A program made the position numbers and the translations under genes. The notes beneath the pieces are model-generated. The model was given only the letters and a program-made list of their open reading frames with translations, searched no databases and was not told the DNA's origin. Shown here piece after piece: positions 5,966 through 56,114 of a DNA stretch of 64,000 bases; the first letter of the stretch is position 1, and the number at the start of each line of letters is the position of its first letter. This stretch comes from Octopus vulgaris (lineage: Eukaryota). The stretch spans positions 43,338,001 through 43,402,000 of the forward strand of contig OX597833.1 in NCBI GenBank assembly GCA_951406725.2. The letters are read 5' to 3'.

Positions 5966-6084
5966 GCTTACGGCCGTATCACGTGAAAGCTCCAGTTCTC
6001 GTCTGATCACCGTAGTTAAGCAACATCGAGCCTAGTGAGTACTTAGACGAGTGACCGTTTGGGAAAACCTAGGTGCTGTAAGCA
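5966..6084 (+). pseudogene. 5S rRNA pseudogene / orphan copy
   Basis: 119 nt, GCTTACGGCCGTATCACG...CTCGTCTGATCACCGTAGTTAAGCAA...AGTACTTAGACGAGTGACC...TGGGAAAACC..GGTGCTGTAAGC, colinear with metazoan 5S. Box C is diverged, there is no oligo-T terminator and it is not in an array. Confidence 0.88.
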
Positions 6085-11261: not shown

Positions 11262-11263
<2 letters not shown>

Positions 11264-11433
11264 AAATACAAAATGGGGCAAGAACGCAAAACATCCAGAC
11301 AGTTAGGTGATACAAAAAAGGGACAACAAAACATCCAGATAGAGATACGAAGAAAAACAAGGAGGGGTTATTCGGAGTTTTCTTTCCTCAGTCGAGTTTC
11401 AGATTATCTTTGCAATTTCTGCTGGTTATACTC
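11262..11433 (-). mobile_element. Fragment of the non-coding structured-repeat family also at 19306-20543 and 46292-46565
   Basis: Shares GAAATTGC...AATC...GACTGAGGA...CGAATAA (minus strand) and the ACAAAACATCCAGA tail with 46292-46565; flanked by (TG)n/(TA)n. Confidence 0.7.
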
Positions 11434-11443
11434 GATATATATA

Positions 11444-12965: not shown

Positions 12966-13002
12966 ACTTATTATTATTATTATGATTATTATTATTATTA
13001 TT

Positions 13003-14121
13003 CAGTAGTTTTATTTTTATTTTTATAGCGTGCTTTCACTTCACTACCGAGCGCAGCTCTGTGTGCCTTGGGTATGTGCTGTGATTTGTTGTGATGCTCT
13101 GATGGTTATTGTATGGAAAGTGTTCTGCGTAGGATGTGTGCAGTGCCTAGTAGTGCAATTTTCTGTATGTTATATGTGTTTGTAAATCCTGGTGTTTTTG
13201 TTATGTATTTGTCTGAATATTTTTTTATCATGCCTAATGCACCTACTATGATAGGAATTGTTTCTGTTTTCAGATTCCACATTCTAGTTACCTCTATTTC
13301 CAGGTCTTTGTATTTTGAGAGTTTCTCCATTTCTTTTAGAGACACGTTGTCATCTGCCGGTACTGATACATCAATTAGAAAGCATTTTTTTTCTTCATGG
13401 TCTCTGACAACTATATCTGGTCTGTTGGCCTTAATTTCTCTATCTGTGTGTATCGGCATATCCCAGAGTATGGTTGCTTTCTCGTTTTCTGTGACCTTTT
13501 CTGGTGTGTGCCTATACCATCTTTTTTCTGTTGTTATTCCATAATGTTGGCATAGCTTCCAATGTATGTAAGTTCCAACTCTGTCATGTCTGTGAATATA
13601 TTCCTTCTTAGCCAGGACTGGGCAGCTAGAGATAATATGATTTATTGTTTCTTGTCCATCTCCACATATTCTGCAGTTACTTGTAATATTTCTTTTCATT
13701 ACATGTTTTTGGTAATTTCTGGTGGGGAGGCTTTGGTCTTATGCTGCAATTAAAAATCCCTCTGTTTCTGCTTTGAGTCCTGAGCTTCTCAACCATTGCT
13801 GGGATTTTTCTTTGTCTATTTCTTTTGCGTTTAGTTTAGTCCAGTATTTACCATGAAGGGGCTTTTCTTGCCATCGTTTTATCATGGTTCGTTGCTGTTC
13901 TATTTTTAGTTTGGATTTCATTTTTTTTATAGCTTTTGTTGTTTCTTCATCTTCTTCTTCTTCTTCTTCTTCATGTTTATTAGGTGGTATGATTTCTTGT
14001 TTGTATTTGTCAGCTTCCTTAAATACTGAGAACAGTTTTTTGTTTTGCTCGTGTTTTGCCGCTATCTGGATCAGTTTTCCTTCCTTCTGAAGTAGATATT
14101 TTTGCAGTCCTATGGTGGTTA

Positions 14122-16711: not shown

Positions 16712-16766
<55 letters not shown>

Positions 16767-16769
<3 letters not shown>

Positions 16770-16965
16770 TAGTTTTATTTTTATAGCGTGCTTTCACTTC
16801 ACTACCGAGTGCAGCTCTGTGTGCCTTGGGTATGTGCTGTGATTTGTTGTGATGCTCTGATGGTTATTGTATGGAAAGTGTTCTGCGTAGAATGTGTGCA
16901 GTGCCTAGTAGTGCAATTTTCTGTATGTTATATGTGTTTGTAAGTCCTGGTGTTTTTGTTATGTT
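16767..16965 (-). mobile_element. R4/Dong-like LINE 3' end, near-identical to 13003-13205
   Basis: Same 3'UTR (…GTGAAGTGAAAGCACGCTATAAAAATAAAACTACTG) running into (TAA)n. Confidence 0.9.
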
Positions 16966-17045
16966 TTCCTTCCATATTTTATATGTATGTGTTGTATTTT
17001 CATTTTGTGGGTAGAGCATTGCTGTGAAGTATGCGTGTAAGATAG

Positions 17046-18972: not shown

Positions 18973-18984
18973 ATATACATATAT

Positions 18985-19232
18985 GGTACAGGACGTCACA
19001 AAACGTAAACAACATAAAATACGAGGCAAACTTGGGTATGCGAACAACGAGAGAAACAAATAGAAAACAAGACAAGTAACATAAAGAAATGTGAAGTAGA
19101 TGAACAGCCGACAACTGATGAAGGGGCGTTCTTTATGTTGCTTGTCTTGTTTTCCATTTATTTCTCTCATTGTTCGCATACCCAAGTTTGTCTCGTATTT
19201 CATGTTGTTTACGTTTTGTGACATCCTGTACC
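18985..19232. repeat. Fold-back element: 104-bp inverted arms around a 40-nt loop (Penelope pLTR-like)
   Basis: 18985-19088 is the near-perfect reverse complement of 19129-19232; the loop contains CAGCCGACAACTGATGAAGGGG. Confidence 0.85.
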
Positions 19233-19305
19233 CATATATGCATATATATATTTACATATATATGTAAGTATGTACATATATGTATGTGTAAACATATATA
19301 TATAT

Positions 19306-20538
19306 CTGATTCTGTCCCCTGCCTTCCACCCTCTTTGATTCCCTCTCTCTCTGTCTCTCTTTCTCTCTCTCTCTCCTGCAACCTGCTGCTTCTTAACCAT
19401 TCTGTTGGCCATCGTATCTCGACCAACATGTGTCCCCGCTACCGAAACGGTAATTATTTCTACGCCAGCTGCTATGTTGTTGTTGTTTTTGTCTCATTTG
19501 GTCTAAAGTCGTATGACAACCACCGTTATATATATTTTGTTTATTCATTACTGTTTTCAATTTCGTTTTCGTCTCTTGTATTTACATCCGTCTTGTGCGT
19601 TCACATTCCTGTCTTCTACCAAGAAATCTAATGCTTACAGCTTAGTTTTTTTCTTGGGGCTGGCCGAGTTGGAGCAAATATCAGAATTGAACAGCCGAAA
19701 TTTGCTATGATGATTCGGTGTCTGACTGAAGATTGAAGGCTTCGAATGATTTGTCTGTGTTCCGTGTTCGTCCCTTCCTGTATTTCACGTTCATTATATA
19801 TAAAAACATTTATTCTTATATTATTGCGGCGTTACGTGCACCCACCCCCCGTTTGTTTGTCCAATTTTAAACCCTGCACGACTTCTATACACACTGTCTT
19901 TCCTACCCGCCATTGCTTCTTCACCAAACTATTTTGGCGCCCTCCGATTCTTCCCCCTCTTCCTCCCATCCTCCTCCCCTCTTCCTCCCATCCTCCTTAA
20001 TCCCTTCTTTCTCCTTTTCTCTTGGTCACTGATTCTGTCCCCTGCCTTCCACCCTCTTTGATTCCCTCTCTCTCTGTCTCTCTTTCTCTCTCTCTCTCCT
20101 GCAACCTGCTGCTTCTTAACCATTCTGTTGGCCATCGTATCTCGACCAACATGTGTCCCCGCTACCGAAACGGTAATTATTTCTACGCCAGCTGCTATGT
20201 TGTTGTTGTTTTTGTCTCATTTGGTCTAAAGTCGTATGACAACCACCGTTATATATATTTTGTTTATTCATTACTGTTTTCAATTTCGTTTTCGTCTCTT
20301 GTATTTACATCCGTCTTGTGCGTTCACATTCCTGTCTTCTACCAAGAAATCTAATGCTTACAGCTTAGTTTTTTTTCTTGGGGCTGGCCGAGTTGGAGCA
20401 AATATCAGAATTGAACAGCCGAAATTTGCTATGATGATTCGGTGTCTGACTGAAGATTGAAGGCTTCGAATGATTTGTCTGTGTTCCGTGTTCGTCCCTT
20501 CCTGTATTTCACGTTCATTATATATAAAAACATTTATT

Positions 20539-20543
<5 letters not shown>
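19306..20543 (+). repeat. Tandem non-coding repeat, 723-bp period (~1.7 units), flanked by (TA)n
   Basis: CTGATTCTGTCCCCTGCC starts at 19306 and 20029; copies are almost identical. Confidence 0.93.
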
Positions 20544-20588
<45 letters not shown>

Positions 20589-27799: not shown

Positions 27800-27861
<62 letters not shown>

Positions 27862-28058
27862 TAATACTAAGTAATTAAGGGTTTAGCAACGAATTGCCTC
27901 ACCAACACACCGAATTTAGAAATAGCAGTCAAAGAGATATAGCTATTCCTTCTACTAAAAGGGGGATCTCAGTAAAAACACAGCACTTGAAAGGCAAACA
28001 CAGACAGGTAAGAAAGAAAGAATGGAATGACGGCAATCCATCATGCAATTTTAAGTTA

Positions 28059-28150
28059 CCTACGGACGTACGTTTCGAGATCAAGTTTTAGGATAGCATA
28101 AGAATTAGAAAATTCTACTTTACCCAAACTTCTTCTCTCATCGGCGCAGG
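28059..28150 (-). ncRNA. Type I hammerhead ribozyme with a long stem II (copy 1)
   Basis: Minus strand CCUGCG-CCGAUGA-GAGA…AAGUUU…AGAAUU(UUCU)AAUUCU…AAACUU…UCUC-GAAA-CGUACG-UC-CGUAGG; palindromic stem III ACGUACGU, GUC triplet. Confidence 0.85.
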
Positions 28151-28646
28151 ATACCACAATTATGAATAATTGTATATTAAATTTTGAGATACTAGAATGC
28201 ATCATCTCAACTCAGTGTCAGAGCGAGCCAAAGCATGACCAGTACCACGAAATTCAAAGTTTGAATGAAAGTTTGTGTCACCAGCCCCCTTCCACCCGCG
28301 TGTAGCCAAGACAAAATGCTGCGGTCATTTACTGGGATAAAATATGGTTATCAGTAATAATAAAGGGTGAAATTAATTAATTAGGGATAATTATCAATTA
28401 CACCAAGTAGATTTCGGCATGTAAAAGCCCCATTCGAGGAAAATTTAAGTAATACTAAGTAATTAAGGGTTTAGCAACGAATTGCCTCACCAACCCACCG
28501 AATTTAGAAATAGCAGTCAAAGAGATATAGCTATTCCTTCTACTAAAAGGGGGATCTCAGTAAAAACACAGCACTTGAAAGGCAAACACAGACAGGTAAG
28601 AAAGAAAGAATGGAATGACGGCAATCCATCATGCAATTTTAAGTTA

Positions 28647-28738
28647 CCTACGGACGTACGTTTCGAGATCAAGTTTTAGGATAGCATAAGAATTAGAAAA
28701 TTCTACTTTACCCAAACTTCTTCTCTCATCGGCGCAGG
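28647..28738 (-). ncRNA. Type I hammerhead ribozyme (copy 2)
   Basis: Same sequence as 28059-28150, shifted by 588 bp. Confidence 0.85.
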
Positions 28739-29080
28739 ATACCACAATTATGAATAATTGTATATTAAATTTTGAGATACTAGAATGCATCATATCAACT
28801 CAGTGTCAGAGCGAGCCAAAGCATGACCAGTACCACGAAATTCAAAGTTTGAATGAAAGTTTGTGTCACCAGCCCCCTTCCACCCGCGTGTAGCCAAGAC
28901 AAAATGCTGCGGTCATTTACTGGGATAAAATATGGTTATCAGTAATAATAAAGGGTGAAATTAATTAATTAGGGATAATTATCAATTACACCAAGTAGAT
29001 TTCGGCATGTAAAAGCCCCATTCGAGGAAAATTTAAGTAATACTAAGTAATTAAGGGTTTAGCAACGAATTGCCTCACCA

Positions 29081-29183
<103 letters not shown>

Positions 29184-34165: not shown

Positions 34166-34519
<354 letters not shown>

Positions 34520-46291: not shown

Positions 46292-46565
46292 AATGGGACA
46301 AGAACGCAAAACATCCGGACAACTAGATGATACAAAAAGGGACAACAAAGTATCCAGATAGACGATACAAAAAAACAAGGACGGGTCATTCGAAGGCTTT
46401 TATCCTCAGTCAAGAACCAGATCATCCTCGCAATTTCAGCTGATTAATCTTGAGATTGCTCCAATCTGGCCAGCCCCAAGGAAAAACTAAGCTAAGAGCA
46501 TTAGATTCCTTGGAAAAAAGCATCGAATGTATACGAAAACAAGGACGGAAAAACAAACGATGTTA
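46292..46565 (-). mobile_element. Member of the structured non-coding repeat family (cf. 19306-20543), within (TA)n
   Basis: Minus strand CCAAGGAATCTAATGCTCTTAGCTTAGTTTTTCCTTGGGGCTGGCC…GAAATTGC…GACTGAGGA…TTCGAATGA aligns with 19619-19750. Confidence 0.82.
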
Positions 46566-55362: not shown

Positions 55363-55400
<38 letters not shown>

Positions 55401-55450
55401 CAGTCAGAATCTTCATACATTTTGCTTTGTTCTGTTTTTCTTACTTTCAG

Positions 55451-56021
55451 AGTGGTGTGGTCTGTGGCCCTCATCTGTATGACATTTACCATGATTATCT
55501 CAATGGCAGATATATTTACTGAATTTTACCAATACCCGCTTCTCACCCGAATCAATGTCGGATTTGCCGAAAAGCTGCCTTTCCCTGCTGTCACATTGTG
55601 CAATTTAAACCCGGTTGATCGTACGAAGGTAGAATTCAAAAAACTGGAGCCGTACTTTCTAGCTTTCACTCAGATTGATGACAATGTGAGCAAATCTCTC
55701 ATTAATTGGGATGACCCTGCACTACTACCTTTCAAACTACCCATGAATAAAAGCTACGTGCGTCAAATCAGCCCCAATTTAAATTCGATGTTATATTCAT
55801 GTCTGTGGGAAGGAAAATATTTGAAGTCGAAATGTTCGAAGAATTTCACTGAAAATTTTACAGAATTGGGTATCTGTTATACGTTTAACAGCGCCAGCTA
55901 CAGTGAACTCTACGGACCGCTGTACACGTCACACACAGGTAGCAGTACTGGGTTAGTACTCTATTTTTACATCAACGAAAGCACTTACATTTACAATGAA
56001 GACATGGCATCTGGTGTTAAG
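55451..56021 (+). CDS. DEG/ENaC (ASIC-like) channel, coding exon 2 (TM1 and start of ectodomain)
   Basis: Acceptor TTACTTTCAG|A; VVWSVALICMTFTMII…FYQYP…LPFPAVTLCNLNP…MLYSCLWEG…ELGICYTFN…GSSTGLVL…GVK; donor AAG|GTAAGT. Confidence 0.95.
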
Positions 56022-56114
56022 GTAAGTAATTATAATACTAAATAAATAAATGGAAGAAATTTAAAAGAAATAAACAACGTATTCAGTAAATTACAGAGAA
56101 ACTATACTTGACAG

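What the first reader, a model, noticed from the sequence alone, without database searches (positions are those of the whole stretch)
19306..20543. 723-bp tandem family carrying a conserved, covarying RNA structure that is not a canonical hammerhead
Seen: the same architecture as the retrozymes (1.7 tandem units in (TA)n; relatives at 46292-46565 and 11262-11433). The block 19619-19750 is conserved. Stem CCAAGAAA/UUUCUUGG becomes CCAAGGAA/UUCCUUGG in the 46.4-kb copy, a compensatory change. Its loop UGCUU/UGCUC is complementary to GAGCA inside the next hairpin GGCUG…CAGCC, a possible kissing loop. Then come GAAAUU..GC, GACUGA(A/G)GA and CGAAU(G/A)A. Hammerhead-like words occur, but I cannot fold a valid type I, II or III core. 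Inference: a candidate atypical or new self-cleaving or processing RNA motif.
Basis: partly seen in the sequence, partly recalled or inferred. Interest (0 to 1): 0.75.

Follow-up and report, generated by a model that had tools for sequence, protein, structure and literature searches.

The report
Split-core knotted hammerhead in jumping repeat
This tandem jumping repeat carries every catalytic letter of a hammerhead self-cutting RNA, wired in a knotted order with the catalytic strand opened, and truncated copies of its sister families often begin exactly at the predicted cut, so it likely cuts itself in the cell and is likely the ribozyme that Naiad retrotransposons were reported to lack.

Summary
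The repeat, its relatives and the covarying hairpin are real; the kissing loop is not supported. The motif is a hammerhead in the non-circular order cleavage-site → GAAA → CUGANGA (as in type SGC, Eckert 2023), with a twist: A9 is not joined to G10.1. Stem II's 5' strand lies upstream (G10.1–C11.1 in 12 of 12 family representatives, against 1 of 12 after A9), and two outer helices close the gap. Predicted cut: 19680/19681. The architecture recurs in sequence-unrelated repeat families here (218 descriptor hits in 892 kb; 0 reversed) and, read by eye, in published Naiad 3' ends from cnidarians to octopus, which were reported to lack canonical hammerheads. New functional clue: in sister families B/C, 673 TA-junction matches lie in the window holding the cut, against 60 upstream and 47 downstream; 29 of 95 mapped copies start exactly at the cut. 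Likely a non-coding Naiad-type retrozyme copied from a circle. Cleavage is untested and the mobilising enzyme unidentified. Not found in my paper searches, but this scan already noted the motif on other DNA (59 findings, at least 7 genomes).

The parts
19306..20545 (+). Whole insertion: 1.7 tandem units of family A in (TA)n; variable 5' end, shared 3' end at unit position about 516
19306..20028 (+). 723-nt unit; non-coding (longest Met-started frame 84 aa)
19604..19748 (+). Split-core S-G-C hammerhead, copy 1
19604..19616 (+). Stem IV 5' strands (CAUUC, GUCUUC); pair with 19744-19748 and 19735-19740, which follow A9
   Evidence: pair probability 0.97 and 0.99
19619..19657 (+).
19658..19662 (+). 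Stem II 5' strand GGCUG (G10.1 = 19658); pairs with CAGCC 19692-19696 (C11.1 = 19696)
   Evidence: 3 of 5 pairs change on both sides
19663..19669 (+). Helix X strand; pairs with 19713-19719; counterpart of the helix that bridges stems I and II in type SGC
   Evidence: 3 of 6 pairs change on both sides, 84.9% paired
19673..19685 (+). Block S: stem III 5' strand (U16.1 = 19679), A17 = 19680, predicted cut 19680/19681, stem I 5' strand UCAGA
   Evidence: junction peak in sister families
19692..19706 (+). Block G: stem II 3' strand, GAAA 19697-19700, stem III 3' strand
19721..19732 (+). Block C: stem I 3' strand UCUGA and CUGAAGA 19726-19732; A9 runs on into stem IV, not stem II
   Evidence: stem I 100% paired, 3 of 5 pairs change on both sides
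20327..20472 (+). Copy 2 of the ribozyme, predicted cut 20404/20405
46292..46565 (-). Family B copy with a complete motif (C3 at 46409)
11262..11435 (-). Family C copy that starts at the predicted cut (nucleotide 1.1 = 11435, one T shared with the TA run)
19086..19235 (+). Truncated copy of a further (E-type) family: blocks G and C only (GAAA 19086, CUGAUGA 19115), preceded by an inverted piece
   Evidence: read by eye

Best explanation
The 723-nt unit is a non-coding, (TA)n-inserted tandem repeat that carries all hammerhead core letters in the order cleavage site, GAAA, CUGANGA with the A9-G10.1 link opened, and it likely self-cleaves after 19680 and is likely a non-autonomous passenger of Naiad-type Penelope-like retrotransposons. 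Shown from sequence: stems I, II and III, helix X, P0 and stem IV. Stem II's 5' strand lies about 20 nt upstream of the cut, and stem IV plus P0 join A9 back to G10.1. Inferred: transcription through tandem units gives cut-to-cut monomers. A partner reverse transcriptase primes at an internal TA-like site (the shared 3' end). On a cleaved linear RNA it runs off at the cut, giving short copies that start at +1. On a re-ligated circle or uncut multimer it runs past the cut, giving arrays of 1-3 units like this one.
For: Core letters and G10.1-C11.1 via the upstream strand in 12 of 12 hand-picked family representatives (stem II was not a selection criterion, though the best upstream partner was fitted), against 1 of 12 pairing after A9; strand-permutation tests 0 of 5000 for stems I, II and III. 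Covariation on an unfitted MAFFT alignment. Descriptor: 218 hits in 892 kb, 0 in reversed sequence, 4 in 10 shuffles. Junction matches: 673 in the 32-nt window holding the cut against 60 upstream and 47 downstream. Of 95 mapped loci, 29 start at +1, 82 at +1 to +12 and 13 upstream; matched ATC site at -3: 1; ATT at +6 against -12: 23 against 4. Family-A-like copies: 22 of 24 listed loci start at or after the cut (hand count). Fixed internal 3' end in 29 of 30 loci, arrays up to about 3 units. The same architecture read by eye in published Naiad 3' ends; Naiads prefer (TA)n and were reported to lack canonical hammerheads. A 23-nt motif from Naiad_Ovul has 902 matches in this genome.
Against: No cleavage assay and no usable RNA data. 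The descriptor required stems I and III, so their pairing is partly by selection; 25 of 83 unique hits had an upstream stem II under 4 bp. The junction pattern favours T followed by a non-A base, and +6 (23 loci, 2-nt microhomology) nearly matches +1 (29). The junction test is clean for families B/C, not for A, whose cut has ATA microhomology (5 of 24 at +1). In the window copy a nested-only fold hides CUGA in a hairpin and stem I has probability 0 (pseudoknots not modelled; z = -1.04). Unit A has no nucleotide likeness to the Naiad 3' ends apart from a CT repeat. Craig 2021 calls cephalopod Naiads inactive remnants, yet A and E copies are 100% identical across contigs. The intact Penelope-like element found here is Neptune-like and lacks this motif. 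In E families a weaker stem II can also form after A9 (7 of 83 hits).
Confidence: 0.8

Rival explanations
1. Ordinary type-SGC hammerhead: stem II forms with the strand after A9 (GGCU, after a 5-nt insert), and the upstream GGCUG strand and stem IV are an off switch.
For: AGCC/GGCU can pair in families A and B (76% of cells; 9 of 500 shuffles as high). E families can form a 4-5 bp G-U-rich stem II right after A9.
Against: The pairing is lost in families C and D and at 11.1 in 9 of 21 copies. The base after A9 pairs with 11.1 in 1 of 12 representatives. The same letters pair in stem IV. Eckert saw no insert over 1-2 nt there.
Confidence: 0.07
2. The ribozyme reading is right but the mobilising partner is not Naiad: the active Neptune-like element or a HERO-type retrotransposon copies these RNAs.
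For: Many copies of an intact 781-aa RT + GIY-YIG frame with a C-terminal endonuclease, one beside (TA)n. Naiad copies seen here are diverged and short. Earlier scan notes report a rearranged hammerhead in HERO elements (unchecked).
Against: The split motif is absent from the 40 GIY-YIG loci and regions scanned, and one Neptune-like family there has a type I-like core instead. The HERO-like element in the window lies in (TAA)n, not (TA)n. The architecture matches Naiad 3' ends.
Confidence: 0.25
3. The structure is a non-catalytic protein-binding or RT-recruiting element descended from a hammerhead; 5' ends cluster through a host nuclease, a promoter or RT stalling.
For: No assay. Conserved letters outside the core (P0 loop, GAAUGA) suggest other roles. 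A k-turn-like GA/GA junction is possible in A and B.
Against: C3-U4-G5-A6, G8-A9, G12-A13-A14, A15.1-U16.1 and H17 persist while the stems change completely across families and phyla. The 5'-end peak falls on the nucleotide that hammerhead numbering predicts. RT stalling would be expected on the 3' side of the structure, where counts are low.
Confidence: 0.08
4. A core assembled in cyclic order from two neighbouring tandem units (S and C from unit 1, G from unit 2).
For: Units are tandem, so such pairings are possible on paper.
Against: It still leaves no stem II after A9. Single-copy Naiad 3' ends hold the full architecture. Short local links of 13-16 and 27-30 nt are conserved.
Confidence: 0.03

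Closest known systems
Type-SGC hammerhead (HRIMA-1 and variants; Eckert et al. 2023, PMC10085705; read: introduction, sections 7, 13, 14, 15, first part of 18, and passages; figures and supplements not seen)
   Same: Block order S, G, C; all core letters; short link from stem I to stem II; an extra helix tying the far sides of stems I and II.
   Different: Block C is interrupted: the 10.x strand and the bridging-helix strand lie at the 5' end, and A9 runs into stem IV. The paper assumes block C cannot be interrupted and found no SGC RNA in genomes of known organisms. Here the motif is in thousands of animal genomic copies.
Type-CSG hammerhead (same paper)
   Same: Same anti-cyclic wiring class. 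Four nematode Naiad consensi show C-S-G order with block C intact (by eye).
   Different: The split form is that circle opened between A9 and G10.1 and closed by stem IV and P0.
Non-LTR (animal) retrozymes (bioRxiv 10.64898/2026.07.22.740005; read parts 1-2 of 5; PMC7229834 seen as a search listing only)
   Same: Non-coding tandem units of a few hundred nt, one ribozyme per unit, proposed passengers of Penelope-like elements.
   Different: Defined and searched with type I hammerheads, so such pipelines would miss this motif.
Naiad Penelope-like elements (Craig et al. 2021, PMC8557442; read: passages, and supplement parts 1, 9, 12, 24 plus motif searches)
   Same: (TA)n targets, tandem and inverted 5'-truncated insertions, the same ribozyme architecture at the 3' end of at least 9 of 54 consensi (by eye).
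   Different: Family A encodes no protein and shares no detectable sequence with the Naiad 3' end. The paper reports no canonical hammerhead and only flags 'HHR_half_core'.

Membership tests
Hammerhead ribozyme (core) | CUGANGA, GAAA, A15.1-U16.1, H17 | tested here: met
   12 of 12 representatives (required by the descriptor); family D majority from plain BLAST hits also keeps them
Hammerhead ribozyme (core) | Stems I, II, III around the core, with covariation; R10.1-Y11.1 pair | tested here: met
   G-C at 10.1-11.1 in 12 of 12 through the upstream strand
Hammerhead ribozyme (core) | A9 followed within 0-2 nt by stem II | tested here: not met
   base after A9 pairs with 11.1 in 1 of 12; 7 of 83 unique hits allow it
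Hammerhead ribozyme (core) | Self-cleavage after H17 | not testable with these tools
   indirect support only: 29 of 95 truncated B/C copies start at +1
Type I, II or III hammerhead | Block order CGS, GSC or SCG | tested here: not met
   order is S-G-C; no Rfam hammerhead hit
Type-SGC hammerhead | Block order S, G, C | tested here: met
Type-SGC hammerhead | Helix joining the far sides of stems I and II | tested here: met
   helix X, 84.9% paired, 3 of 6 pairs change on both sides
Type-SGC hammerhead | Uninterrupted block C (stem I, CUGAnGA, stem II) | tested here: not met
Non-LTR retrozyme | Non-coding tandem units, one ribozyme per unit, dispersed copies | tested here: met
Non-LTR retrozyme | Type I hammerhead | tested here: not met
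Non-LTR retrozyme | Circular RNA in cells | tested here: inconclusive
   only contigs of runs guessed to be RNA; arrays of up to about 3 units with a fixed internal 3' end fit a circle or multimer
Non-autonomous Naiad derivative | (TA)n target, fixed 3' end, variable or inverted 5' end | tested here: met
   inverted forms in L032, L036
Non-autonomous Naiad derivative | Sequence descent from a Naiad 3' end | tested here: inconclusive
   architecture shared, sequence not (only 30 loci of one Naiad family compared)
Non-autonomous Naiad derivative | An intact Naiad enzyme present to mobilise it | tested here: inconclusive
   29 of the top 30 GIY-YIG loci read as C-terminal (Neptune-like) or unreadable, one is not a retroelement; 150 of 6136 candidates scored

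The most novel reading that the evidence does not exclude
The A9-G10.1 backbone link of the hammerhead core is dispensable in nature. Naiad retrotransposons across animal phyla and their many non-coding passengers use a knotted, core-opened hammerhead that both cuts and re-closes their RNA, so they are copied by rolling reverse transcription from a circle. This is a wiring outside the six permutations thought possible and the missing ribozyme of Naiads.
Probability: 0.55. Interest if true: 0.9.

Novelty: new variant of a known kind. Interest (0 to 1): 0.8.

Why it matters
The six-permutation scheme for hammerheads assumes that CUGAnGA and stem II cannot be separated; this natural family separates them and keeps every catalytic letter. 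Non-circular hammerheads with covariation support were known only from environmental sequence, whereas these sit in thousands of copies in an animal genome. It answers an explicit puzzle (Naiads 'lack canonical HHR', 'half cores') and means hammerhead censuses of animal genomes miss a large class. The pile-up of genomic 5' ends at the predicted cut is indirect in vivo evidence on what Penelope-like ribozymes do, which Craig 2021 calls unclear. A 150-nt transcript makes all of it testable in a day.

Tried and rejected
Rfam: whole window showed a 5S rRNA copy and microsatellite-driven miRNA hits among the 150 of 271 rows listed; the element alone gave 6 weak non-ribozyme hits. HDV-like, twister and type I/II/III readings were tried by eye with recalled consensus features and dropped: the needed helices were not conserved between families. 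Kissing loop rejected. Stem II after A9 rejected as the general fold. RNA: no RNA holder listed on record; contigs of four guessed-RNA runs cannot show ends; no evidence either way. Single-sequence folding is unremarkable (z = -1.04) because the core is pseudoknotted. Stem III and inner stem IV were misaligned by MAFFT and left out; they rest, where the automatic IV, P0 or II assignment was wrong or weak for A2, E2, E4, E5 and the Naiad copy. Search for the autonomous partner by GIY-YIG found Neptune-like elements without the motif. None of 30 Naiad-motif loci showed shared sequence more than about 460 nt upstream, so linkage to a reverse transcriptase rests on the published consensi. I first took one published hit for a ctenophore and one for Clytia; reading the files showed Naiad-3_Chem (Clytia) and the consensus before Naiad_Plae. 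Literature searches without a prior description: (open-access library only; Eckert supplements not read).

Full report
Observation. The window holds a 723-nt unit (19306-20028) and 0.7 of a second copy, 99.6% alike, between (TA)n runs. Relatives lie on the minus strand at 46.3-46.6 kb and 11.3-11.4 kb. The genome has 2.8 Gb in 227 contigs. First-look candidates numbered 1974 for this family (A), 4057 for the 46.4-kb family (B), 1602 for the 11.3-kb family (C), 1903 for a further family D and 1642 for a sequence-unrelated family E; only 40 were scored each time and the sets may overlap. The 40 best A matches are 100% identical by the tool's rounding, so the family is young. Of 30 A loci (27 separate insertions), 29 end at unit position 512-520 in a TA run, 5' ends vary, and arrays reach about 3 units. 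The unit has no Met-started frame over 84 aa. Rfam finds no ribozyme. The host looks like an octopus: a motif from the published Naiad_Ovul consensus has 902 matches.

Structure. Comparing families gives one fold. In window numbers: stem IV 5' strands 19604-19616; P0 hairpin 19619-19657; stem II 5' strand GGCUG 19658-19662; helix X 19663-19669; stem III 5' strand to U16.1 at 19679; A17 at 19680; stem I 19681-19685; stem II 3' strand and GAAA 19692-19700; stem III 3' strand to 19706; helix X partner 19713-19719; stem I partner 19721-19725; CUGAAGA 19726-19732; stem IV partners 19735-19748. One thing differs: the base after A9 pairs with 11.1 in 1 of 12 representatives, whereas a strand 15-25 nt upstream of U16.1 gives G10.1-C11.1 in 12 of 12 (representatives hand-picked, partner fitted, E4 assigned wrongly by the script). 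The sequence after A9 pairs instead with the sequence just 5' of P0. So the catalytic strand is opened between A9 and G10.1 and closed by stem IV and P0. Eckert et al. assume this block cannot be interrupted.

Is it chance? A descriptor needing S-G-C order with stems I and III of 4 bp or more gave 218 hits (83 unique) in 892 kb of window and loci, 0 in reversed sequence and 4 in ten shuffled sets; 58 of the 83 had an upstream stem II of 4 bp or more, 7 of 83 allowed one after A9. The loci were chosen for these families, so the count shows specificity, not frequency. On a plain MAFFT alignment of 21 copies from A-D, six helices were 92.5% paired with 44 cells changed on both sides (shuffles 15 +/- 2.9, 0 of 500 as high); pairs with such a change were 11 against 8.6 (26 of 500), further pair types were not above shuffles (157 of 500), and slid controls fell to 26-46% paired. 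Stem I, stem II and helix X each have 3 pairs changed on both sides. Copies are related, so these are not probabilities. The rival stem II after a 5-nt insert is 76% paired and fails at 11.1 in 9 of 21 copies.

Evidence that it cuts. If the template RNA ends at the cut, truncated genomic copies should start there. One pattern design (a TA run, up to 31 letters, a 13-letter anchor) gave 673 matches for the window holding the cut in families B/C, 60 for a window upstream and 47 for one downstream; anchors differ in family coverage and no denominators were taken. I fetched the 95 distinct loci among the first 100 rows (5 duplicate rows dropped) and mapped the first element base: 29 at +1, 82 at +1 to +12, 13 over the 20 positions upstream (binomial p about 1e-20 against a flat rate). 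The pattern favours T followed by a non-A base and microhomology matters: +6 (ATT) has 23. Matched sites still show a step: ATC at -3 has 1, ATT at -12 has 4. The +1 T can be shared with the TA run, so +1 and +2 are not separable. For A-like copies, 24 distinct loci were listed among the first 100 of 467 rows: 5 at +1, 17 after it, 2 before it (hand count); the cut there has ATA microhomology. The window's own 11.3-kb copy starts at +1. RNA data gave nothing usable.

Link to Naiads. Craig et al. 2021 (PMC8557442) report that Naiads target (TA)n, lack canonical hammerheads and in eight cases show a 'half core' with the second half 35-50 nt away. Reading their consensus file by eye, the full split architecture is at the 3' end of Naiad_Ovul and Naiad_Obim, Naiad-3_Chem, Naiad_Plae and the consensus before it (Naiad-2_Movir by file order), three Acropora consensi and one arthropod consensus whose header I did not see: 9 of 54. 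Two more fit imperfectly (Naiad_Bfor, short stem I; a consensus near part 25, weak stem II). Four nematode consensi show C-S-G order with block C intact. I saw no such motif in the 3' ends of Naiad-1_Chem, Naiad-2_Chem, Naiad_Dcar or Naiad_Omin. I viewed only part of the motif hits (30 of 62 plus the first 7 for one word; 16 each of 43, 25 and 23 for the others), and these parses were not computed. In this genome the Naiad_Ovul motif passes the descriptor, but unit A shares no sequence with it and no intact Naiad was found; the intact element is Neptune-like and lacks the motif. The mobilising enzyme is therefore inferred.

Mechanism. Shown: the fold's pairings, the tandem layout, the fixed internal 3' end and the 5'-end peak. 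Inferred from hammerhead chemistry (established knowledge) and from how Penelope-like elements insert: transcripts are cut after H17; a partner enzyme nicks (TA)n and primes at the TA-like site about 140 nt downstream of the cut; on a cut linear RNA it runs off at +1; on a circle or uncut multimer it passes the cut and lays down 1-3 units. The window insertion spans two cut sites, so it needs the second route. A competing hairpin over CUGA in family A could slow cleavage.

Novelty. Ten searches of the open library found no description of this wiring or of a Naiad hammerhead; subscription papers and the Eckert supplements were not seen. I had reached this reading before opening the scan's notes. 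Those notes show the scan found the same motif many times on other DNA: 59 findings in at least 7 genomes, several in this genome. They are unchecked AI notes and not independent support. They added two leads: a kink-turn between helix X and stem III (a 3-nt bulge with GA/GA fits A and B, not clearly C, D, E or Naiad) and HERO elements as further carriers (the HERO-like 3' end at 13000-13060 shows partial S and G words only). Verdict: a new variant of the hammerhead, strongly supported by comparison, indirectly supported as active, untested at the bench.

Noticed in passing
window 18980-19240: Right beside the finding lies a truncated copy of an E-type family (blocks G and C only) with an inverted 5' piece, the layout typical of Penelope-like insertions.
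   Followed up: partly
PMC8557442 supplement S5, nematode Naiads: Four consensi (three Nippostrongylus, one Haemonchus, by file order) show a hammerhead in C-S-G order with block C intact; Eckert et al. knew only two CSG sequences, from metagenomes.
   Followed up: partly
PMC8557442 supplement S5, parts 16-18: Spider and ostracod Naiad ends seem to use yet another wiring: the strand after A9 pairs upstream of stem I and stem II looks local. Read by eye only.
   Followed up: no
PMC8557442 supplement S5, Naiad-1_Chem and Naiad-2_Chem 3' ends: Two shared structured motifs without CUGANGA; one resembles an HDV-like ribozyme by recalled pattern. Not tested.
   Followed up: no
L211-L215 (G000 C16, C17, C6, C5): Young Neptune-like Penelope element with intact 781-aa RT + GIY-YIG frame and an upstream frame of 330-480 aa; no hammerhead detected by my scans. 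A related family (L184, L218, L219) has a type I-like core.
   Followed up: partly
window 12968-13738 (-), repeat at 16732-16967: 3' part of a HERO-like retrotransposon (zf-RVT, E 2.5e-5; name recalled) in (TAA)n; its end has UC, GAAA and stem-I-like words but no complete CUGANGA.
   Followed up: partly
window 27677 (+), 39914 (+), 60179 (-), 63106 (+): CUGANGA followed by GAAA at canonical spacing: candidate ordinary minimal hammerheads.
   Followed up: no
window 27855-29081: Another tandem element (588-nt offset, 99.5% alike) in (TA)n, related to 34298-34472; motif not examined.
   Followed up: no
window 5966-6084 (+): 5S rRNA-like copy (Rfam 75.9 bits), directly before a 185-nt repeat family that is abundant in the window.
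   Followed up: no
window 55398-56042 (+): Exon of an amiloride-sensitive sodium channel (Pfam ASC, E 5e-33).
   Followed up: no
families A-D, P0 loop and the word after stem IV: CUAAUGC in P0 and GAAUGA after stem IV are conserved in A-D without a pairing role found; they may be tertiary or protein contacts.
   Followed up: no
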